A stretch of 64,000 nucleotides of DNA from Candidatus Sulfomarinibacteraceae bacterium (GTDB lineage Bacteria > Acidobacteriota > Thermoanaerobaculia > Thermoanaerobaculales > Sulfomarinibacteraceae): the NCBI GenBank assembly GCA_963714895.1, contig CAVQQC010000016.1, positions 106,133 to 170,132 on the forward strand. The letters run 5' to 3'. The notes beneath the pieces are model-generated. The model did not search any database. It was not told the DNA's origin and saw nothing but the letters and a program-made list of their open reading frames with translations. Positions 2,405 through 63,136 of the stretch are shown here, piece after piece. How positions within the stretch are numbered: the first letter of the stretch is position 1; every line of letters starts with the position of its first letter. The translations under genes and the position numbers were made by a program.

Positions 2405-3892
2405 ATGCGCAACGCTTGATTTGTTCCACCGCCACGTTGGCCCTGATCGTCGCCGCGGCGACAGTCTCGCCGCAGATATCCCGGACCGCCCCGAGAAACT
2501 CGCCTATCCGGACCTCACCTTCGACGTGCCGGACGCCGACGCCCTGCGCTTCGAACTGACCGACGGCACCCCCGTCTACGCCAAACAGGACAGCCAGTTC
2601 CCGCTGGTCAACATCACGGTCTACTTCCGTGGTGGCCGCTATCTCGAACCCGAAGGCAAGGCCGGTCTGGCCGCCATCACCGGTGACGCCTGGCGCACCG
2701 GCGGCGCCGGCGAACGAACCGCCCAGGAACTCGACGAGGAGCTCGACTTTCTCGCCGCCAACCTCGGCACCAACATCGGCGACGTCACCGGTTCGGTGAG
2801 TCTCAACGTGCTGTCCAAGGACCTCGACGCGGCCATGGCGCTCCTCATGGACGTCGCTCACCGCGCCGCGCTTCCAGGAGGACCGCTTCGCCAAGGCCAA
2901 GGACGACCTGCTGCAGGCGATGAAGCAGCGCAACGACGACACCGCCGACATCGAGGCCCGGGAGTGGAACCGCCTCATCTACGGCGACGACTACTGGATG
3001 AACCGCCTCGCGACCAGGCGTCGGTCGACGCGATCACCGCCGCCGACTGCAAGGCCTTTGTCGAAGCTCCTGGTGCGTTCGGGCAACTCGTGGTCGCGGT
3101 GGCCGGCGACTTCACCGCAGACCGAGATGGACGCCCTGCTCAACACGCACCATCGGCTCCCTGCGAAGCTCGAAGCAGCCACTGCCGGAGATCCCGCAGC
3201 CCGAGCCACGACGCCGGCAACCGGGCGTCTACGTCGTCAACAAGCCCGACGTCAACCAGGGTCGGGTGCGCATCGGCCAGCTCGGCTCAGGCTCGGCCAC
3301 CCGGACGAGTTCGCGCTGATGGTCGGCAACGACATCCTCGGCGGCGGCGGCTTCACGGCCCGCATGATGAAGCGATCCGCTCGGACGAGGGCCTCGCCTA
3401 CAGCGCCTACTCGCGACCTCGGCATTCCCGGTGACCATCCCGGGGACATTCCGGCGTACTTCCAGACCAAGTCCTCGACCTGCGCCTACGCCGCCGAGCT
3501 CTTCTTCGACCTGATCAAGAGCGATGCGGACCGCGCCGGCCACCGACGAGGAGCTGAGCACCGCCAAGAGCTCGTTCATCGAGACCTTCCCGCGCACGTT
3601 CGAGTCCGCGGGCCAGACGGTCGGCCTCTATCGCCACCGACGAGCTGCTCGGCCGGCCCCACGACTACTGGACCGACGTACCGCGACAACGTGCGCGGCG
3701 GTCACCGCCGACGAGATCCAGAAGGCGATGACAGACAGACCTCGACCCCGACAAGATGATCGTGCTGGTCGTCGGCAACATCGAGGAGATCATGAAGGGC
3801 CACCCCGAGCACGATGCGAAACTCACCGACTTCGGGAGATCACGGAACTGCCGCTGCGCGACCCGATGACGCTCGAGCCGATCGCAAAGTAA
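2405..3892 (+). CDS. M16 family peptidase-like partner subunit; multiple frameshifts
   Basis: Fragments in ORFs 2400..3434, 2920..3759 and 3524..3892 (ELDEELDFLAA, NDILGGGGFTARMM, IRSDEGLAYSAYS). No HxxEH seen, as is typical of the second gene of M16B pairs. Confidence 0.8.
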
Positions 3893-4155: not shown

Positions 4156-5932
4156 GTGTTTCGAATCCGCAGAGTCTACGACAACATCTTCGCCCACGAC
4201 CGGGCCGCCATCGAGCAGGTGCAGGCGATCCTGGTCGACCGTTTCCCGGGTCTCGACCCCAAAGACGTCGAAAGCCTGGCGGACAAGCTCAGATCACCGG
4301 TGCGGCACGGTTTCCGGGCAATCCTCTACGTCGCCGAATCGCAGCGCCAAATGGTCAAGGCCTTTGCCGTCATCCACCACGAAACGGAGGTCGGCTTCGT
4401 GTGGCTGGATTTCATCGCCACCCGATCGGGCACCGCCGGCAGCGGTCTCGGCGGCACCCTGTACGAGCGGGTGCGGAGGGACGCCCTGGCGGTGGGCGCG
4501 TGGGGGGTCCTCTTCGAGTGTCTGCCCGACGACCCGGCGCTTTGCCCCGACCCCGCCAAGCGGCGGCAGAACGCTGCCCGTCTGCGTTTCTACGAGGGTT
4601 ACGGCGCCCGCCCGGTCGTCGGGACCGGATATGAAACCCCGCTGAGCCCGGACGACGAGGAGCCTCCCTACCTCGTGGTGGACGACCTCGGCACCGGCAA
4701 GGCACCGGGACGCAAGGCCATGCGCGCGGCGGTAAGGGCGATCCTCGAACGCAAGTACAAGACCCTGTGTCCCCCGGACTACGTGGATAGCGTCGTGGCC
4801 TCGATCCGCGATAACCCGGTCCAGCTGCGGCCGTTCAAATACCTCAGCGAACCGGCACGCGTCGAGGCGGATCGCCCGCCCGTCCCCCCTCCGGACCGGC
4901 GAATCGCCCTGGTGGTCAACGACCGCCACCTCATCCACCACGTGCGGGAGCAGGGCTATGTGGAGTCGCCGGTTCGGATCAAGGCCATCCGGAAGGAGAT
5001 CGACCAGACTTCGTTGTTCGAAGAGATCGCGCCGCGCGAGTTTCCGGATCGGCACCTCCTCGAGGTGCACGATCCGGGCTACGTCAGCTATCTGAAACGG
5101 GTGTGCGAACGGGTCGGCGACGGCAAGGCCGTCTACCCCTACGTCTTTCCTATCCGGAATGCGGCGCGTCCCCCTAAGGAACTCGAGGTCCGGGCCGGCT
5201 ACTACTGCATCGACACCTTCACGCCTCTCAACCGCAACTCGTACCTCGCCGCCCGCCGGGCGGTCGACTGCGTGCTCACCGCAGCCGACGCGCTGACCAA
5301 GGGGCGCCGCCTCGCCTACGCCCTCGTGCAGGCCGCCGGGGCACCACGCCGAACGCCGGTCGTTCGGGGGTTTCTGCTACTTCAGCAACGCGGCCATTGC
5401 CGCCCAGGAACTTTCAAAAACCGCCCGCGTCGCGATCCTCGACCTCGACTACCACCACGGCAACGGCCAGCAGGACATCTTCTGGGAGCGCGGCGATGTC
5501 TTCACGGTGTCGATCCACGGGCACCCGAACTTCGCCTATCCCTACTTCTCTGGTTTCGCGGATGAGCGCGGAGCGGGCGACGGTCGCGGCGCAAATCGCA
5601 ACTACCCACTCGAGGAGCATGTCGACGGTGAGAGGTACCGGCGGGTCCTCGCGAGAGCCCTGCGCAGGATCGAGAACCACGGGACCGAGGTTCTGGTGGT
5701 TGCCCTCGGTCTGGACACCGGTCGCAAGGACCCCACCGGCACATGGGACCTTGTCGCGAAAGACTTCGAGGCCAACGGACGTCTGGTGGGAGGTCTTCAA
5801 CTGCCCACCCTGATCGTCCAGGAGGGCGGATACCGGGTCCGCAGCCTGGGTAGCAATGCCCGGAGTTTTTTCACCGGACTGTGGGAAGGGGCCTTCGGTC
5901 TGGCGGCCCCGGCGCCGGAGCAAAAAAAATAA
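4156..5932 (+). CDS. GNAT acetyltransferase-like domain fused to histone deacetylase/acetylpolyamine amidohydrolase domain; frameshifts near 5330-5345
   Basis: GTG 4156 after GGAGG. N-terminal GNAT (WLDFIA..GSGLGGTLY..RLRFYEGYG). C-terminal HDAC motifs ESPVRI, (RP)PGHHA..GGFCYF, DLDYHHGNGQQ, SIHG, LGLDT, QEGGY are split over frames. Confidence 0.85.
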
Positions 5933-5955
5933 ACCGACATCGAGACCGAAAACAC

Positions 5956-5983
5956 TTGACACAGTTTCAATTGGCGGTACTTT
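5956..5983 (+). promoter_or_regulatory. Sigma70-like promoter for the KamA operon
   Basis: TTGACA (5956-5961), 16-nt spacer, TACTTT (5978-5983). Confidence 0.55.
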
Positions 5984-5989
5984 CGAATT

Positions 5990-6175
5990 GTGAGAGTTGA
6001 TACCACGTCCGACGAGCCCCCAAGTAGGTTCGGGCTGATCTCCGGCAGTCGCCACCGACTCCGGCAGACGGCCCGCCCCCGGCGCCTCCGGCCTCTCACC
6101 CCCCATGGATCAACCAGCAGTTGCCCCATGACCCAGCCATGTCAGTGGCTTCGGGAACCCCACACTCAAGGATAG
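5990..6175 (+). CDS. Possible leaderless upstream ORF (MRVDTTSDEPPSR...), or frameshifted N-terminus of KamA
   Basis: GTG lies 7 nt after the predicted -10. The ORF ends 7 nt before the KamA ATG and is out of frame with it. Confidence 0.35.
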   Translation: MRVDTTSDEPPSRFGLISGSRHRLRQTARPRRLRPLTPHGSTSSCPMTQPCQWLREPHTQG

Positions 6176-6182
6176 ATCGACC

Positions 6183-7472
6183 ATGTCGTCGCGCCCCTTG
6201 GGGCATTCCGCGCGTGTGACGCAATCGTCACTCGTTCAATCGAGCGAGCAGGGTGAAATCTCGCCCATCGCCAAACCCGACCGCAACTTCCAAAGGAGGA
6301 AATCACAGATGCCCAGAAACCGCCGCTCGGCGGCAAGGAAATTTGCGCCCGATCTCCGCCAACGCCTGTGCCAGGTCTTCGGCGAGAGTTACGACCCGGA
6401 AGCCTGGGCCGATTGGCGGTGGCAGCTTCGCCACCGCCTGACCCGCCTCGAACACCTCGAGGCCTACCTCGAACTCACAGAACAGGAAAGGCTCGGCCTC
6501 GCCATGGGCGCCGAGCGATTTGCCGTTTCGGTGACGCCGCACTTCGCGGCGCTGATGGACCCCTTCGACCCGAAATGCCCGATCCGCCGCCAGGTGGTGC
6601 CCACCTCGGAAGAGTTCGTCGTCAGCGCCGGCGACATGGAGGACCCCTGCGGCGAAGACCACGCATCCGCGGTCGAGGGCCTGGTTCACCGCTACCCGGA
6701 CCGGGTGCTGCTGCTCGCCCTCGACACCTGCGCAGCCTATTGCCGCTACTGCACGCGCTCGCGGCTGGTCAGCCAGGGCGCCCTCGACCCGCTGCCTCGC
6801 CGGATGGACGCAATTCTCGAATATCTGCGCGCCCACACTGAAGTGAGGGACGTGCTGCTGTCGGGCGGCGACCCGCTGATGATGTCGGACGATCGTCTCG
6901 ACGCCCTCCTGGGCTCGATTCGTGAGATCGAGCACATCGAGTTCGTGCGCATCGGCAGCCGCGTTCCCTGCTTCGTTCCGCAGCGCATCACGCCCGAACT
7001 TGCCGCCGTGCTGCGGCGTCACAGGGTGTGGCTGTCGCTGCACTTCTCTCACCCCTCCGAGCTGACTCCCGAAGTCGAGACGGCGTGCGACATCCTGGCC
7101 GACGCGGGAATTCCTCTCGGCAGCCAGACCGTGCTCCTGCGCGGCGTCAACGACGACGACGCGACCCTGAAGGAGTTGTTCCACGGTCTGCTGAGAAACC
7201 GGGTCCGCCCCTACTACCTCTATCAGGCCGACCCGGTCGTGGGCACCGCCCATCTGCGGACCTCGATCACCAAAGGCATCGAAATCATGAGCAAGCTGCG
7301 GGGCCACACCAGCGGCTACGCCGTCCCGACCTACGTCGTCGACGCCCCGGGCGGCGGCGGCAAGATTCCTGTGCAGCCGGAGACGGTCGTCGACCACGAC
7401 GGCGGGGTCTGGCGCCTCAAAAACTGGGCGGGCGAGATCTACACCTATATCGACCCGCAGGAAGCGAGCTGA
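6183..7472 (+). CDS. KamA family radical SAM aminomutase (lysine 2,3-aminomutase-like)
   Basis: HRYPDRVLL, CAAYCRYC (CxxxCxxC), SGGDPL, QTVLLRGVND, DAPGGGGKIP (PLP lysine). Start may be 6309. Confidence 0.93.
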   Translation: MSSRPLGHSARVTQSSLVQSSEQGEISPIAKPDRNFQRRKSQMPRNRRSAARKFAPDLRQRLCQVFGESYDPEAWADWRWQLRHRLTRLEHLEAYLELTEQERLGLAMGAERFAVSVTPHFAALMDPFDPKCPIRRQVVPTSEEFVVSAGDMEDPCGEDHASAVEGLVHRYPDRVLLLALDTCAAYCRYCTRSRLVSQGALDPLPRRMDAILEYLRAHTEVRDVLLSGGDPLMMSDDRLDALLGSIREIEHIEFVRIGSRVPCFVPQRITPELAAVLRRHRVWLSLHFSHPSELTPEVETACDILADAGIPLGSQTVLLRGVNDDDATLKELFHGLLRNRVRPYYLYQADPVVGTAHLRTSITKGIEIMSKLRGHTSGYAVPTYVVDAPGGGGKIPVQPETVVDHDGGVWRLKNWAGEIYTYIDPQEAS

Positions 7473-58912: not shown

Positions 58913-59778
58913 TAGGTGCCGGGTCCGCAGTTCCGTAGTTGTTACGAATCAACGATCGTCACCAATCAACAGCCTATCCAACTTCTCATACCGTTGCTGA
59001 AGATGTTCGTCGTCGAGCCTTTGTTTGACTCCTTCACGCTGAATGTAGGTTACCGTGTCCGCGCTTTTGTGGAGTGCCGACGCTAAGTTCTTGGTGCTCT
59101 GTGCCCACCGTTCCCGTCCCAAGGTAACGATTAACCTTCGGGCCTCGACCAGTGGTTGCAGGCGGGAACGACTCGCGAGGTCTTCGACCTTGAGCTGAAG
59201 GATATCGGCGCAATGTCGGATGAATTGATCCGCTGAGAGTTCATCTCGCTCCGGCCCGGTGCTCCTTCCGAGGACGTCGATATAGGGCCCCTCGTCATCC
59301 GGAGCCAAGTCTCGATCCGGCCGAAACCAGATTTCAGGCAGGCCTGTTTCTCGACCCGCTTCCGCCCCGAGATCCCGGCACCCCTGCCGGATCGCCGACA
59401 GGTAGGCCTTCCGCGCATCACGCTGCTTCTGCCCAAAGCTCAGCAGGCAGTCGTCAACGTCGATGATGGGGTTCGAGATCCCCTTGACGATTTCTCGGTG
59501 GCCGCTGAAGACATGGTCGACCGGGCGAGCGACCAATCCGCCTGCTACCGGGTTGAGATGAATGTAGAGAATGACCCGATCGAGGTATCCCTGCTCATTG
59601 ATCGGTTTCGCGTGGTAACGACTCTGCCAAAGCGCCCCGGTGCGTCTTCGCCCTCGGTTGAATCGCTGGCTGAATCTACCTTGAAGATACTGGAATCCCC
59701 GCGAGATCGGGATCGCTCTGCTCCGTATGGCGAGGTGGTAGTGGTTCGACATGTAAACCCAAACAGAACACCCCACTC

Positions 59779-60237
59779 GTGGGTGATGGCGGACGAGTCC
59801 ACATCTACTACCGATACCACGGCCATGCGGGCGGCGAGTTCGAAGTTGCCAAGGCCTGGAAGGCGCGGGGACAACAGGTCAACGTCGTCCTTCCGAACGG
59901 CTCCCGCCTCTTGGTCCCGGAGTGGGTGACGCAGCCCAGCGCCGCCGCCTTTGAGGTGACAGAGCAGGCTGCAATCAGCGTCGGAGCCTTGCTGGCGATT
60001 TGTCAACTCATCGAAAGCCGCGGGTGCCGGTCGGCGGCGCGTCACGGGTCTACTCTTTCGGCGAATGAAACCAACGCCGGAAAGGGGGACGCGGATGGAG
60101 CAGCTTCGACTCCTCGTGATCGAGGACGAGGTGACCGTTCGAGTCGAGCTCGACGAGAGCCTACGCGACGAGCTGGTCACCCTGATGGTCGCGGCCATCG
60201 TGGCCGTCCATCAAGCAGAAACGGAGGCCGACAATGA
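59779..60237 (+). CDS. Accessory ORF1 of the recombinase element; lacks a strong start in the integrated state
   Basis: IYYRYHGHAGGEFEV..LPNGSRLLVPEWVT. The frame is open back to the left junction, and its stop overlaps the recombinase ATG. Confidence 0.55.
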   Translation: MGDGGRVHIYYRYHGHAGGEFEVAKAWKARGQQVNVVLPNGSRLLVPEWVTQPSAAAFEVTEQAAISVGALLAICQLIESRGCRSAARHGSTLSANETNAGKGDADGAASTPRDRGRGDRSSRARREPTRRAGHPDGRGHRGRPSSRNGGRQ

Positions 60238-60241
60238 GTGA
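60095..60241 (+). CDS. 48-aa accessory ORF2 (MEQLRLLV...ETEADNE)
   Basis: Own translation; purine-rich RBS AAAGGGGG; overlaps the recombinase start by 8 nt. Confidence 0.55.
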   Translation: MEQLRLLVIEDEVTVRVELDESLRDELVTLMVAAIVAVHQAETEADNE

Positions 60242-62366
60242 TTGGGACCATCCCAAGGTTCGGTCGGAGCATGTCAGCCGTAAGGCTGTCGTGTATCTCA
60301 GGCAGTCATCGATGAAACAGGTCCGGGAAAACCTCGAGAGCCAGCGCCTTCAGTACGCCCTGGCAGACCGCGCGCGGAAAGCCGGATTTGCCGAGGTCGA
60401 GGTCATCGACCGCGACCTCGGCGTCAGTGCGGCGGTCGGTTCCGATCGCGAGGGATTTGAGCGCCTGGTTTCGGAGGTTGCGCTGGGCCAGGTCGGTGCC
60501 GTGGTTTCTCGAGAGGTCTCCCGGCTTTCGAGGACCGACAAGGACTGGTGCCATTTACTGGAGGTCTGTCAGGTCTTCGACACCCTGATCATGGACGAGG
60601 ACCAGGTCTACGACCTCAGCGAGATCGACGACCAGCTCGTGCTCGGCATCAAGGGCACGATGAGTGTCGTGGAGCTGAAGGTGCTGCGAATGCGAATGCT
60701 CCGAGGTCGCGAGGAGAAGGCCCGGCGCGGGGAGCTCAGAACCCGCCTAGCGCCGGGCTTCGCCTACGACTCGACCGGCAAGATGGTGCTGCATCCTGAT
60801 CAAAGAGTTTTTGACGCGATCTCGCGAATCTTCCGAAAGTTCCGCGAGCTGTGGAGCGCGCGCCAGGTCTTCATGTGGTTTCATGACAACGAAATCATGG
60901 TCCCGGTCAACCGCTGGGGAGGAGGACCTGCCGAGCTGGAATGGAAGCTACCGACGCTCAGCTTCATCCAGGACGTCCTGCGCAATCCGGTCTACGCCGG
61001 GGCATACGTTCATGGTCGGCGACCGGTCGAAACCGTGTTCGAGGACGGCAAGCTCGCCAAACGAGCGGGGAGCCCGAGAGAGCCAGAGGACTGTCACGTC
61101 TTCCTGCGGAATCATCACGAAGGTTATATTGACTGGCAGGAGTATGAGCTCAATCGCAAGCGGCTGCGACGAAACTGTATGAGATTCGAAAGCGATCCGG
61201 CGACCGCGGCGGTTCGTGGTGGTCACGGCCTGTTGGGCGGTGTCCTGCGCTGCGGGCATTGCGGTCGCAAGCTCCAGGTGCGCTACTGGGGGAAGAAGGG
61301 GACCACACCTCGCTACTTCTGCAAGGGCGACTACGATAGCGGCGGCGCCTACTGTCTGTCCTTCGGTGGTCACAAGGTTGATCAGCGCTTCTCCGAGGAG
61401 GTCTTAAGGGTGCTCTCCCCGCTGGGGATCGAGGCCGGCCTGCGGGCGACACAGGAGCTCCGATCACAGCATGAGGATCGAGTGCAGGCGCTCAAGCTCG
61501 AGCTCGAACAGCTCGACTACGAGGTTCGGCGGGCGTTCGAGCAGTACGACGAAGTCGACCCGAGGAACCGGTTGGTCGCGGCCGAGCTCGAACGCCGGTG
61601 GAATGCCAAGCTCGAAGAGCAGAATCGGGTTCGGCAAAACCTGATTGCGGTGGATGCGGATCGGCAGCCGGTCACTTCGGAGGTCGAGGCGAAGCTTCGC
61701 AATCTCGGTGAGAATTTCACGCTGGTCTGGAATGATCCCGGTTGCCCGGTCGAACTGAAGAAGAAGGTCGTACATACGCTCATCGAGGAGATCACCGTCA
61801 CGCTCGACAACGATGTCGCAACGCTTCGATTCGTCGTTTACTGGAAAGGCGGCTGCCACACCGAGTTGGCACTGGAAAAGCCTCGGCCGGCTACCGCCAC
61901 GAAAACCTGTTCAGACGCGCTGGAAATCATTTGCAAGATGGCCTCAAACTACGGCGACGGACAGATCGCCGCCGTCCTCAACAAGTCAGGACTCCGCACC
62001 GGCAAAGGCAAACGCTGGACTCAGACCCGCGTCGCGACGGCCCGCAGGAACCACTTGGTTACCGGCCAACGATCGATGATTCCAGACTCCGATATCCTCA
62101 CCCTCAGTCATGCGGCAAAGCACTGCGACGTCAGCCAGCACACGATCCAGCAGCTCGTGAAATGTGGTCTCCTGGAAAACAACCAGGTCGTCCCGCACGC
62201 GCCGTGGGAAATCAGGAGAGAGGATCTCGAATCCGAACCCATCCGAATAGCCCTGGTACACCTCAAAAGGACCGGCAAACTGTCCCCGATGGGGGGTCAT
62301 TTACGATCCCAAATAGCACTTCCTCTTGAAAACAAAGAAGATGATAACGAGGGGTATTATGAGTGA
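60234..62366 (+). CDS. Large serine recombinase (resolvase, recombinase, Zn-ribbon, coiled coil, C-terminal HTH)
   Basis: VYLRQSS, EVSRLSR, LRNPVYAG, LLGGVLRCGHCG..YFC, LTLSHAAKHCDVS. Confidence 0.95.
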   Translation: MSDWDHPKVRSEHVSRKAVVYLRQSSMKQVRENLESQRLQYALADRARKAGFAEVEVIDRDLGVSAAVGSDREGFERLVSEVALGQVGAVVSREVSRLSRTDKDWCHLLEVCQVFDTLIMDEDQVYDLSEIDDQLVLGIKGTMSVVELKVLRMRMLRGREEKARRGELRTRLAPGFAYDSTGKMVLHPDQRVFDAISRIFRKFRELWSARQVFMWFHDNEIMVPVNRWGGGPAELEWKLPTLSFIQDVLRNPVYAGAYVHGRRPVETVFEDGKLAKRAGSPREPEDCHVFLRNHHEGYIDWQEYELNRKRLRRNCMRFESDPATAAVRGGHGLLGGVLRCGHCGRKLQVRYWGKKGTTPRYFCKGDYDSGGAYCLSFGGHKVDQRFSEEVLRVLSPLGIEAGLRATQELRSQHEDRVQALKLELEQLDYEVRRAFEQYDEVDPRNRLVAAELERRWNAKLEEQNRVRQNLIAVDADRQPVTSEVEAKLRNLGENFTLVWNDPGCPVELKKKVVHTLIEEITVTLDNDVATLRFVVYWKGGCHTELALEKPRPATATKTCSDALEIICKMASNYGDGQIAAVLNKSGLRTGKGKRWTQTRVATARRNHLVTGQRSMIPDSDILTLSHAAKHCDVSQHTIQQLVKCGLLENNQVVPHAPWEIRREDLESEPIRIALVHLKRTGKLSPMGGHLRSQIALPLENKEDDNEGYYE

Positions 62367-62571
62367 GTCGTCATCACGCACCATGCCAGCACACTCCATC
62401 CATCACGTGTCTTCGTTTCTCGCACGGTGTCGATGAACTCGACCGCTTCCTCAGGATTCGCGAATATCGGTTCGCCGCTCGCAACCCGGTTGTACACATG
62501 GTACAAACCACCTTCGATCTCGACCCTCGCCCTTCGAACCATAGATTTTTCCCTGTTCGGGAAAGCTATCA

Positions 62572-62817
62572 CAACTTTCTAAGTTTCTAAAGCCTGGCAC
62601 CGATAATGGCACCGATAAGAAACTCCACCATTATCTCCACAGGCAGGATAGAGCATCACGACCAGCAGGATGATGACGATGGTGGTTGCGACGATGATGG
62701 TGACGATGACGACGGTGGTGGGCGTGACCACCATCATGATGATGGTGATGTTGATCAGCAGCGAAGTGAACGGCCGGCGCCGGCCTCGGTCAACTTTCTA
62801 AGTTTCTAAAGCCTGGC
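62572..62817 (+). repeat. 27-bp exact direct repeat, each copy followed by a short tandem duplication
   Basis: CAACTTTCTAAGTTTCTAAAGCCTGGC at 62572-62598 and 62791-62817, followed by (TGGCACCGATAA)x2 and (TGGCTCTGATT)x2. Confidence 0.92.
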
Positions 62818-62842: not shown

Positions 62843-63136
62843 GTGGGGAATTTTGCATCGTACTGCCGTTTGGTGAAGTCGGATCGGTTCAGCAACGGTA
62901 AGCGAAAGGGCTCAGGCAACTCCAAAAACGGCAACCCCAATTTGTCTTGGGCTTTCTCGGAAGCTGCCCATTTCGCGGTGCGTTACTACGAGCCTGCCAA
63001 AAAGTTCGTGCAACGGAAACGATCCAAGACCAACGGCATCGTGGCGATCAGAGCTTTGGCTCACAAGCTGGCGAGAGCGTCGTACTACGTCATGAAAGAT
63101 CAAGTGGACTTCGATCCCGATAAAACGTTTTCATAA
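62843..63136 (+). pseudogene. IS110 transposase C-terminal fragment
   Basis: FASYCRLV..SNG..KNGNPNLSWAFSEAA..ALAHKLARASYY; the DEDD N-terminal domain is missing. Confidence 0.85.

What the first reader, a model, noticed from the sequence alone, without database searches (positions are those of the whole stretch)
59730..62395. Minimal serine-integrase element inserted just before the catalytic HUH motif of a RAYT, with both att sites recoverable
Seen: removing 59753-62374 gives TGG TGC GTG ATG TCG AAC CAC TAC CAC CTC (WCVMSNHYHL), with only CAT shared by the two junctions. The rejoined element ends, GGGGTATTATGAGTGAGTCGTC-AT-GTAAACCCAAACAGAACACCCC, form an imperfect palindrome centred on AT (15 of 23 positions pair by my count). 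The empty site TGGTTCGAC-AT-CACGCACCA is partly symmetric about the same AT. Established: this is the attP/attB geometry of large serine recombinases. Inference: a 2.6-kb IS-sized integrative element that may target the conserved M-x-N-H-x-H coding sequence of RAYTs, and a ready-to-test integrase/att set.
Basis: partly seen in the sequence, partly recalled or inferred. Interest (0 to 1): 0.85.

Follow-up and report, generated by a model that had tools for sequence, protein, structure and literature searches.

The report
Serine-integrase mini-element splitting a RAYT gene
A 2.6-kb mobile element that encodes little more than a large serine integrase has cut a RAYT transposase gene just before its catalytic motif, and its many relatives do the same to the key motifs of other transposons.

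Summary
Window 59753-62374 (2622 bp) splits a RAYT-family gene on the minus strand. Taking it out rejoins the gene without a gap, as in an intact paralogue of the same genome. The insert carries a 710-aa large serine recombinase (LSR) and two small upstream ORFs.

RAYT targeting is supported. All 6 junction contexts in this integrase clade sit at the same Met/Leu codon, two codons before N-H-x-H, in RAYT genes only about 50% identical to each other. Copies 99.6% identical lie in other RAYT flanks in public runs.

The sister clade sits in the HUH motif of IS91 transposases, in the same register. More distant clades sit in the IstB Walker A motif, IS3, IS21, IS66, IS110 and a group II intron RT. 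This includes complete plasmids of cultured rhizobia.

I read it as an IS-sized site-specific LSR element that parasitises other mobile elements.

Not shown: excision, a circular form, or the exact crossover (AT favoured, CA not excluded). Nine literature searches found no description. Interest 0.75; new variant of a known kind.

The parts
58949..59752 (-). C-terminal part (267 aa) of the split RAYT-family gene. It starts at the Met codon and holds SNHYH (the HUH motif), the YIHLNP tyrosine motif and a DnaA-C-like HTH tail.
   Evidence: Pfam Y1_Tnp scores 23.8 bits against a cut-off of 23; Bac_DnaA_C scores 22.3, below its cut-off. Gap-free alignment with the paralogues.
59750..59752 (.). CAT shared with the right junction (attL core). 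The crossover dinucleotide is AT (59751-52) or CA (59750-51).
59753..59778 (+). Left end of the element (the attP arm next to the crossover). It is nearly identical in L010 and L011.
   Evidence: Alignment. It forms one half of the palindrome tested.
59779..60060 (+). ORF-A, a small protein (GTG start, about 90 conserved residues; the frame stays open to 60237). It is a distant relative of DUF5372.
   Evidence: Conserved in all clades. Against L010 it shows 29 synonymous and 26 non-synonymous codon changes. Homologues from other clades hit PF17342: L109 scores 29.5 bits (cut-off 25), while L079, L035 and L046 fall below the cut-off. The window's own copy gives no hit.
60065..60241 (+). ORF-B, a small protein of 48-58 aa that overlaps the integrase start (ATGA). 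Function unknown; it is a candidate regulator or directionality factor.
   Evidence: Conserved pattern across clades. L010 carries an in-frame 6-nt deletion. Synonymous to non-synonymous changes are 7:13 and 6:10, against 6:26 and 6:16 (vs L010, L011) in the overlapping ORF-A frame. RefSeq annotates an equivalent 55-66-aa gene in 5 of 8 plasmid loci.
60234..62366 (+). Large serine recombinase, 710 aa. In order: resolvase catalytic domain, recombinase domain, zinc ribbon, coiled coil, then an extra C-terminal module of about 190 aa with two HTH-like units.
   Evidence: Pfam PF00239, PF07508 and PF13408. Invariant R23, S25, R97, R100, C340, C343, C363 and C374 in 25 of 25 aligned relatives. AF2 model and Foldseek hits to solved serine integrases, E 5e-16. 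C-terminal part analysed.
62367..62374 (+). Right end of the element: 5-6 nt after the integrase stop codon, then the shared CAT (attR core, 62372-74).
   Evidence: The IS91-targeting clade has the same layout: stop codon, 6 nt, then the dinucleotide.
62375..62572 (-). N-terminal part (66 aa, GTG start) of the split RAYT-family gene, ending ...LAWCV.
   Evidence: It is 79% identical to the N-part of the intact paralogue L004.
62573..62598 (+). Context, not part of the element: a 26-nt repeat directly upstream of the RAYT start, repeated at 62792-62817.
   Evidence: 6 copies in the genome. An inverted pair flanks the intact RAYT on C25.

Best explanation
Window 59753-62374 is an IS-sized (2622 bp) site-specific integrative element. 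Its only large gene is a large serine recombinase.

Inferred mechanism:
- The integrase pairs the joined element ends (attP) with a site of about 40 bp inside a RAYT gene (attB).
- It cuts both duplexes at a central dinucleotide, swaps the halves and religates.
- Nothing is duplicated or lost, so the RAYT gene is split one codon (M/L) plus two codons before its N-H-x-H catalytic motif, and precise excision would restore it.

The recognised half-site includes the two His codons of the HUH motif, at +8..+10 and +14..+16 from the crossover. The element therefore homes into the most conserved DNA of a multi-copy, horizontally moving gene family. I read it as a parasite of another mobile element.

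Shown here: the anatomy, the exact rejoining, LSR identity, repeated independent insertion at the same codon, and recent mobility (near-identical copies in different flanks).

Inferred, not shown: strand-exchange chemistry, the circular intermediate, excision, the roles of ORF-A and ORF-B, and the exact dinucleotide.
For: 1. LSR identity. Three Pfam domains. Catalytic-type and zinc-binding residues invariant in 25 of 25 relatives. Fold matches to solved serine integrases.

2. Exact, gap-free rejoining of the RAYT gene, against two intact paralogues. The intact paralogue passes NCBIfam REP_Tyr_transpos (87.1 bits, cut-off 80).

3. Same codon in 6 of 6 junction contexts of the clade: window, L010, L011, L042, the X1/X3 flank and the X5 flank. 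The RAYT flanks are far more diverged (41-53% aa) than the integrases (86%).

4. A 2663-nt contig of run X3 carries the element with 11 differences in 2634 nt, but with another RAYT flank.

5. These four integrases form one clade (SH-aLRT 99), sister to a clade of 28 rows. In 26 of those rows an IS91-family gene abuts the junction, split within its H-P-H-x-H motif.

6. In that sister clade the same dinucleotide stands at both junctions in 16 of 19 loci, with six different dinucleotides among them. That fixes the crossover 6 nt after the stop codon. The HUH His codons lie in the same register as in the RAYT site.

7. The attP palindrome is centred at the homologous position (14 of 23 pairs, reached by 0.1% of centres).

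8. Related clades show recent movement within one genome. In G260, two copies 99.69% identical over 2605 nt lie in two different genes, both at a G-P-P Walker A sequence.
Against: - No circle junction and no clean empty site were seen. Only assembled contigs could be laid, and these cannot show rare forms.
- The element is single-copy in its own genome. Yet two paralogous sites match the occupied site at 11 of 12 and 16 of 18 positions and are unoccupied.
- No promoter-like site was found.
- The crossover is ambiguous. A fixed CA fits all RAYT-clade junctions and, unlike AT, is not palindromic. AT is palindromic, which in canonical LSRs would lose orientation control, yet every insertion has the same orientation.
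- If AT is right, the X5 (TT) and L011 (CT) junctions imply that the dinucleotide changes between copies. That is not canonical LSR behaviour.
- The RAYT clade rests on few contexts. Two of them are 27-29-nt flanks read from single contigs.
Confidence: 0.8

Rival explanations
1. Host-kept conditional switch. As with the skin element in sigK or the fdxN element in cyanobacteria, the insert is kept by the host and excises on a signal to turn the RAYT gene on.
For: Both gene halves are intact and excision would be precise. The best NCBIfam hit of the integrase is XisF. [quoted passage not shown] Passages of PMC4874684 describe that arrangement for most cyanobacterial interruption elements.
Against: Near-identical copies sit in different RAYT genes in several runs. 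The clade crosses RAYT genes only about 50% identical. Two other RAYT paralogues in the same genome are uninterrupted. The XisF score of 77 is far below the cut-off of 375. The whole family behaves like a spreading repeat, with 536 plasmid records and up to 15 places in one plasmid.
Confidence: 0.1
2. Inactive relic. The element inserted once, can no longer move, and the shared position in other genomes is inherited.
For: Single copy in its own genome, with free look-alike sites left unoccupied. No excision products were seen.
Against: The integrase ORF is intact with all invariant residues. Copies 99.6% identical lie in at least two other RAYT flanks. The flanks are much more diverged than the element.
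Confidence: 0.05
3. Serine transposon with loose target choice (TnpX/TndX-like or IS607-like). The RAYT hits are then a sampling accident.
For: The crossover dinucleotide seems to vary between copies. In a distant clade, identical integrases of one genome (G279) lie in an IS3 gene and in an IS21 istA gene.
Against: 6 of 6 contexts in the RAYT clade sit at one codon. In the sister clade, 26 of 28 tree rows have an IS91-family gene abutting the junction, at the H-P-H motif. No DUF4368 domain was found. IS607 scores 20.7 bits against a cut-off of 110, and the domain order is that of an LSR.
Confidence: 0.04

Closest known systems
Gene-interrupting elements of heterocyst-forming cyanobacteria (XisF-type serine recombinases) and the skin/SpoIVCA element of Bacillus
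   Same: A large serine recombinase gene lies at one end of an element that splits a coding sequence, mostly opposite in orientation to the split gene, and precise excision restores the gene. In PMC4874684 (passages read), 48 of the 100 excision genes reported there (48 serine, 52 tyrosine) are serine recombinases, and two of the interrupted genes are transposases. XisF is the best NCBIfam hit.
   Different: Here the element is only 2.6 kb and carries no cargo. It spreads among diverged copies of a mobile-element gene in many phyla and is not tied to cell differentiation. It is not a XisF equivalog (77 bits against 375). It has an extra C-terminal HTH module and the ORF-A/ORF-B pair.
Phage-type serine integrases (PhiC31, Bxb1, A118/LI integrase)
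   Same: Domain order, zinc ribbon with coiled coil, and fold (Foldseek E 5e-16 to 6e-07 against 9dxh, 9rah and 4kis). The attP is imperfectly palindromic, and no duplication is made.
   Different: No phage or island cargo. The target is a motif of a transposase gene. The integrase stop codon lies inside the attP arm. The crossover dinucleotide differs between copies of one clade (16 of 19 loci matched at both junctions, six kinds). As I recall it, in phage integrases the dinucleotide is fixed and must match.
Serine transposons: IS607 family, and Tn4451/Tn5397 (TnpX/TndX)
   Same: A mobile element moved by a serine recombinase, without terminal inverted repeats or target duplication. IS607 elements are IS-sized.
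   Different: IS607 transposases are small, have the DNA-binding domain first, and show little target specificity (abstracts of PMC4058570 and PMC6188088, seen in search listings). TnpX/TndX-type LSRs usually carry DUF4368 and are multi-targeting (PMC10083194, passages read). Neither feature is present here.
Integrases that repeatedly target genes of other mobile elements (helper-embedded satellites in prophage late genes, PMC10111431; serine-integrase IMEs inside streptococcal ICEs)
   Same: The same logic: one mobile element homes into a conserved gene of another. PMC10111431 was seen as an abstract in a listing. The streptococcal case is recalled.
   Different: Those elements are multi-gene satellites or mobilisable islands inside phages or ICEs. 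Here a near-bare integrase sits inside the catalytic motifs of insertion sequences.

Membership tests
Large serine recombinase (serine integrase) | N-terminal resolvase-type catalytic domain with the nucleophilic serine and conserved arginines | tested here: met
   PF00239 E 4.4e-18, residues 18-167. R23, S25, R97 and R100 are invariant in 25 of 25 aligned relatives. Their equivalence to R8/S10/R68/R71 of gamma-delta resolvase is recalled, not tested.
Large serine recombinase (serine integrase) | Recombinase domain, then a zinc ribbon with four Cys and an embedded coiled coil | tested here: met
   PF07508 E 3.7e-17 and PF13408 E 2.3e-08. C340, C343, C363 and C374 are invariant. Long helices are predicted at 380-475.
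Large serine recombinase (serine integrase) | Fold like solved serine integrases | tested here: met
   Foldseek top 12 hits, all serine integrases: 9dxh (5.1e-16), 9y66, 9dxf, 9rah (PhiC31), 4kis. The model has mean pLDDT 70.8 and pTM only 0.33, so the relative placement of domains is not reliable.
Large serine recombinase (serine integrase) | Conservative exchange at a 2-nt crossover between imperfectly palindromic att sites, with no target duplication | tested here: inconclusive
   Exact rejoining, only CAT shared, and an attP palindrome of 14 of 23 pairs. Which 2 nt cross over is not settled, and attB symmetry is weak. In the sister clade the dinucleotide varies between copies.
Large serine recombinase (serine integrase) | Recombination activity, and direction control by a directionality factor | not testable with these tools
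   Only contigs could be laid. ORF-A and ORF-B are candidates only.
XisF (fdxN element excision recombinase, NF041201) | Score at or above the equivalog cut-off | tested here: not met
   77.2 bits against a cut-off of 375.
IS607-family serine transposase (NF033518) | Small transposase with an N-terminal HTH before the catalytic domain, passing the model cut-off | tested here: not met
   20.7 bits against a cut-off of 110. The catalytic domain comes first and the protein has 710 aa.
TnpX/TndX-like multi-targeting LSRs | DUF4368 domain and many unrelated target genes | tested here: not met
   No DUF4368 hit. 6 of 6 clade contexts are in RAYT genes at one codon.
RAYT (REP-associated tyrosine transposase, NF047646): the split target gene | Y1 HUH transposase fold with HUH and catalytic Tyr motifs, passing the model cut-off | tested here: met
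   The intact paralogue L004 scores 87.1 bits (cut-off 80); L005 scores 77.2, just below. The C-part of the split gene passes Pfam Y1_Tnp (23.8 against 23) and keeps HYH and YIHLNP. The rejoined protein itself was not handed to a family search.
RAYT (REP-associated tyrosine transposase, NF047646): the split target gene | Association with abundant REP/REPIN repeats | tested here: inconclusive
   A 26-nt repeat abuts the gene, and an inverted pair flanks the intact paralogue. But the 4.0-Mb, 86%-complete genome holds only 6 copies.
DUF5372 (PF17342): ORF-A | Score at or above the Pfam gathering cut-off | tested here: inconclusive
   The window's ORF-A gives no hit. Positional homologues score 29.5 (L109, passes), 20.8, 18.4 and 17.5 (below the cut-off of 25). 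RefSeq names a DUF5372 protein upstream of a related recombinase in L126.
Insertion sequence (in the ISfinder sense) | Short element that encodes only its own mobility functions and occurs in several copies | tested here: inconclusive
   2622 bp with no cargo. One copy in its own genome. Two 99.69% identical copies of a related clade in G260. Up to 15 places in one plasmid. No terminal inverted repeats or target duplication, as expected for serine chemistry.

The most novel reading that the evidence does not exclude
This element is one tip of a very large family that I did not find described. Its members are IS-sized elements with a DUF5372-like ORF, a 50-aa ORF, and an integrase of about 700 aa with extra C-terminal HTH units.

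The family would consist of specialised parasites of other mobile elements. Each integrase clade homes into the DNA that encodes a catalytic or nucleotide-binding motif of one transposon protein:
- the HUH motif of RAYT and IS91, in one shared register;
- the Walker A motif of IstB;
- conserved blocks of IS3, IS21 IstA, IS66 and IS110;
- a group II intron RT.

The elements can leave precisely, so they may act as reversible off-switches of their host transposons. Their crossover dinucleotide is not fixed, which would mean strand exchange tolerates or resets a mismatch, unlike in phage integrases.
Probability: 0.5. Interest if true: 0.85.

Novelty: new variant of a known kind. Interest (0 to 1): 0.75.

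Why it matters
- It would add a second, site-specific kind of serine-recombinase insertion sequence beside IS607. This kind lives inside other transposons and silences them at their catalytic motifs. That bears on how transposon load is kept in check, for example on rhizobial symbiosis plasmids, where the family is abundant.

- It offers many natural integrase/attP/attB sets whose sites can be read directly from genomes. Related clades recognise different short conserved targets, which is useful material for studying how LSR specificity changes.

- The variable crossover dinucleotide would touch a basic rule of serine integrase chemistry, if experiments confirm it.

Tried and rejected
- Excision products. 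Read laying on four runs served assembled contigs only. No circle junction was seen. One 'joint' in X5 (59749 to 62486, one contig, 24 letters on the shorter side) does not fall on the junctions. It is best read as an uninterrupted paralogous RAYT of another organism, so it is no evidence either way.

- Circular contigs. None of the 36 loci shorter than 3.3 kb that were checked has a terminal overlap.

- Promoters. No sigma-70-like site in 59400-62700, and terminator-like sites at chance level.

- Second copy. The own genome holds none: one 41-nt weak DNA match only and no second integrase.

- PDB by sequence gave only one catalytic-domain hit (3g13, E 4.6e-06). The fold search was needed.

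- L070 (integrase 55% identical) has a weak RAYT-like hit in its left flank (E 3e-4), at a distance that does not fit the junction. It is left unresolved.

- Unassigned flanks. Of 97 loci with enough flank, 34 matched nothing in my own panel of target proteins. Pfam found nothing for the flank ORFs of L020, L027, L042, L072, L080, L101, L102 and L118. That the L020 target is a helicase is only my reading of its motif.

- Alternative crossover. I considered a fixed CC or TC dinucleotide for the IS91 clade and dropped it. It cannot explain why the variable dinucleotide co-varies at the two junctions.

- Supplements of PMC10083194 (target-gene Pfam enrichment) and PMC4874684 (Table B) could not be seen. 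They may already list transposase genes as LSR targets.
Full report
**What is in the window**

On the minus strand, 62375-62572 encodes 66 residues ending ...LAWCV. 58949-59752 encodes 267 residues starting MSNHYHL. Between them lie 2622 bp (59753-62374) that carry, on the plus strand, a 710-aa ORF (60234-62366). This ORF has the three Pfam domains of a large serine recombinase: Resolvase (E 4.4e-18), Recombinase (3.7e-17) and Zn_ribbon_recom (2.3e-08).

The C-part of the split gene passes Pfam Y1_Tnp (23.8 bits, cut-off 23). The same genome holds two intact paralogues:
- Contig C25: 344 aa, 43% identical over the C-part and 79% over the N-part.
- Contig C7: 323 aa.

The rejoined protein aligns with both without a gap at the junction. 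The C25 paralogue passes NCBI's RAYT model (NF047646, 87.1 bits, cut-off 80); the C7 one scores 77.2. One reservation: the flanking 26-nt repeat has only 6 copies in this genome.

**The junctions**

Only CAT is common to both junctions. Only 0.1% of all centres in the window do as well. Around CA the figure is 10 of 23, which 7.5% of centres reach. The empty site is only weakly symmetric: 6 of 12, reached by 8% of centres.

**The integrase**

- In an alignment of 25 relatives (58-100% identical), R23, S25, R97, R100 and the four zinc-ribbon cysteines are invariant.
- An AlphaFold model (mean pLDDT 70.8, pTM 0.33) shows the catalytic domain, recombinase domain, zinc ribbon and long coiled-coil helices (380-475). 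After these comes a confident extra module (about 500-680) of a small sheet and two helical HTH-like units.
- Foldseek puts solved serine integrases first: 9dxh at 5.1e-16, the PhiC31 integrase 9rah, and 4kis. Small local matches to Xis/MerR-type HTH proteins also appear.
- Pfam sees a second recombinase-like HTH and a weak HTH_17 in the last 210 residues.
- The protein is not a XisF, Ccr or IS607 equivalog.

**Other genes of the element**

Two small ORFs precede the integrase in every clade I looked at.

ORF-A (59779 to about 60060) shows 29 synonymous against 26 non-synonymous codon changes versus L010. Its positional homologues hit DUF5372: one passes the cut-off, three fall below it, and the window's own copy gives no hit.

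ORF-B (60065 or 60095 to 60241) overlaps the integrase start. L010 carries an in-frame 6-nt deletion in it. It has a better synonymous ratio than the overlapping ORF-A frame. RefSeq annotates an equivalent gene in 5 of 8 plasmid loci. The functions of both are unknown. A role in directionality is my guess.

**Is the RAYT position a target?**

The element is single-copy in its genome, so the test had to come from relatives.

- L010 (integrase 86% identical): a RAYT N-part only 47-50% identical ends at the same residue, directly after the integrase gene (WCLM).
- L011 (86%): a RAYT C-part 43-53% identical starts at residue 1, at the same distance upstream (482 nt against 481), with a Leu codon (LGNHHH).
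- L042 (58%): the flank ends GYVVM.
- Contigs of four public runs were laid on the region. X3 holds a 2663-nt contig with 11 differences in 2634 nt, whose left flank reads MDNHYHVIL. X1 has the same flank. X5 holds a contig whose right flank ends SWWAL.

That makes 6 of 6 readable contexts at one codon, in RAYT genes far more diverged than the element. L012/L017 is one contig fetched twice and has no flanks. L070 is unresolved. These four integrases form one clade (SH-aLRT 99) in a tree of 78 full-length integrases. That tree left out 30 of 108 loci whose integrase was shorter than 600 aa or held a stop.

**The wider family**

The protein search returned 6192 proteins at E 0.001 or better among 8000 scored candidates. 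The 120 listed are 56-100% identical and mostly 710 aa. Many sit on contigs of about 2.6-3 kb. That is what a repeat that breaks assemblies looks like.

*IS91 clade.* The sister clade (28 tree rows, 55-62% identical to the window's integrase) has an IS91-family gene abutting the junction in 26 rows. The N-part (Pfam Zn_Tnp_IS91) ends ...LHTW.Q.L.. right at the integrase stop. The C-part starts (x)HPH[VLI]HC some 512-533 nt upstream of the integrase start. Elements 85-90% identical at the DNA level lie in IS91 genes only 53-67% identical in protein, so these too are independent insertions.

In this clade the first two bases of the codon before H-P-H are the same at both junctions in 16 of 19 loci. 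They differ between loci: CA, CT, TT, AT, GC and AC. By chance the two would match 1 time in 16. This marks the crossover at the stop codon plus 6 nt. Placed so, the two His codons of the HUH motif lie at +8..+10 and +14..+16. That is exactly their position in the RAYT site if the window's crossover is AT.

*More distant clades (28-44% identical).* These abut other mobile-element genes, mostly cut at conserved blocks:
- IstB_IS21, cut at profile position 101-103 of 238, which is the G-P-P of the Walker A motif. Seen in 5 of 5 tested.
- IS3-type and IstA-type rve domains.
- TnpB_IS66 and DDE_Tnp_IS66.
- IS110.
- A reverse transcriptase, cut at 81 of 205.

With my own panel of these proteins, 62 of 97 loci with enough flank have such a gene at the junction. 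This leaves out L036, whose IS91 gene is merely nearby. The other 34 matched nothing in the panel, and most were not studied one by one.

*Movement within genomes.* In genome G260, two copies 99.69% identical over 2605 nt lie in an istB gene and in an unassigned gene, both at G-P-P. In G279, identical integrases lie in an IS3 gene and an istA gene.

*Cultured bacteria.* In PLSDB plasmids, 536 records hold a relative, mostly Rhizobium, Sinorhizobium and Bradyrhizobium, with up to 15 places in one plasmid. Of 8 loci inspected, 7 have an IstB N-part or an IS66 transposase abutting the integrase 3' end on the opposite strand. All are annotated simply as 'recombinase family protein'.

**How it most likely works**

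The anatomy fits conservative site-specific recombination by an LSR between a circular form of the element and a site centred two codons before N-H-x-H. The chemistry, the circle and excision are inferred from the family, not seen.

*Which two bases cross over.* AT is favoured by the palindrome centre and by homology with the sister clade. CA is the only dinucleotide common to all RAYT-clade junctions: the codons are ATG, CTG and TTG. Unlike AT, CA is not palindromic. I put AT at about 2 in 3.

If AT is right, the dinucleotide differs between near-identical copies (TT in X5, CT in L011). The sister clade shows the same thing. There, 3 of 19 loci even carry different dinucleotides at their two junctions, which is what replication of a mismatched exchange product would leave. 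That would depart from the rule, recalled from work on PhiC31 and Bxb1, that the central dinucleotides must match.

*Points against high activity here.* The element has one copy, and the two paralogous sites on C25 (the intact gene and the truncated copy beside it) are free although they match the occupied one at 11 of 12 and 16 of 18 positions.

**Comparison with what is known**

The kind is known: an LSR element that splits a gene and can restore it. Examples are the skin element, the fdxN element, and the cyanobacterial interruption elements, two of which split transposase genes (PMC4874684, passages). Serine transposons are also known (IS607, TnpX/TndX). So are integrases that home into genes of other mobile elements (PMC10111431, abstract seen in a listing).

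What I did not find in print is an IS-sized, cargo-free LSR family whose clades each target a catalytic or nucleotide-binding motif of a transposon protein. The searches were (DUF5372: 0 papers). Passages of PMC10083194 name magnesium chelatase, prolyl isomerase and competence genes as LSR targets, and not transposases. My recollection that ISfinder lists IS607 as its only serine family comes from no call.

**Verdict**

I rate it a new variant of a known kind, interest 0.75. The main open points are experimental: activity, the circular form, the crossover bases, and the roles of the two small ORFs.

Noticed in passing
window 62573-62598 and 62792-62817; G000 contig C25 12205-12230 (-) and 13256-13281 (+): A 26-nt repeat abuts the RAYT start codon in the window. 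An inverted pair of it flanks the intact RAYT paralogue on C25. The genome holds only 6 copies at up to 3 mismatches. In the four runs laid, many contigs with unrelated flanks cover just 62572-62605. It may be the RAYT's own REP-like end.
   Followed up: partly
window 62606-62790: Between the two copies of the 26-nt repeat lies a low-complexity stretch rich in GAT/GGT/GAC triplets. An ORF at 62606-62809 would read as runs of Asp and Gly. Not explained.
   Followed up: no
window 62843-63136 (+): C-terminal fragment of an IS110-family transposase (Pfam Transposase_20, profile 33-87 of 87, E 9.7e-07). The neighbourhood of the split RAYT is a patch of mobile-element debris.
   Followed up: partly
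L004 (G000 C25) 2423-2788 (-): A second RAYT copy, truncated at 121 aa, lies directly upstream of the intact paralogue. It breaks off where the 26-nt repeat begins. Its look-alike attB site is unoccupied.
   Followed up: partly
L020 and L035 (genome G260): Two copies of a related element, 99.69% identical over 2605 nt, lie in one complete genome. One is in istB and the other in a gene without a Pfam hit. Both sit at a G-P-P Walker A sequence, so the DNA motif is what is targeted, not the gene family.
   Followed up: partly
L025 and L037 (genome G279): Identical integrases abut an IS3-type transposase (flank ends ...GNPYD) and an IS21 IstA-type transposase (flank ends ...GWE). This distant clade may have a shorter or looser target.
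   Followed up: no
L046 2003-2040 and the other loci of the IS91-targeting clade: In the IS91-targeting clade, ORF-A has no ATG, GTG or TTG near its conserved start, and its frame runs from the very end of the element (H-N-T-L-S-A is encoded by the conserved end sequence). Its translation or transcription may depend on what lies across the junction, in the flank or in the circular form.
   Followed up: no
L126 (Bradyrhizobium barranii plasmid) 5764-6992: A second, related architecture lies next to the hit. RefSeq annotates a 'DUF5372 family protein', then a 'helix-turn-helix domain-containing protein', then a 'recombinase family protein'.
   Followed up: no
L087 and L078: Two relatives abut genes that are not transposon genes: a DruA-like (Druantia) fragment and an AbiEi-type antitoxin. 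I did not check whether these genes are split by the element.
   Followed up: no
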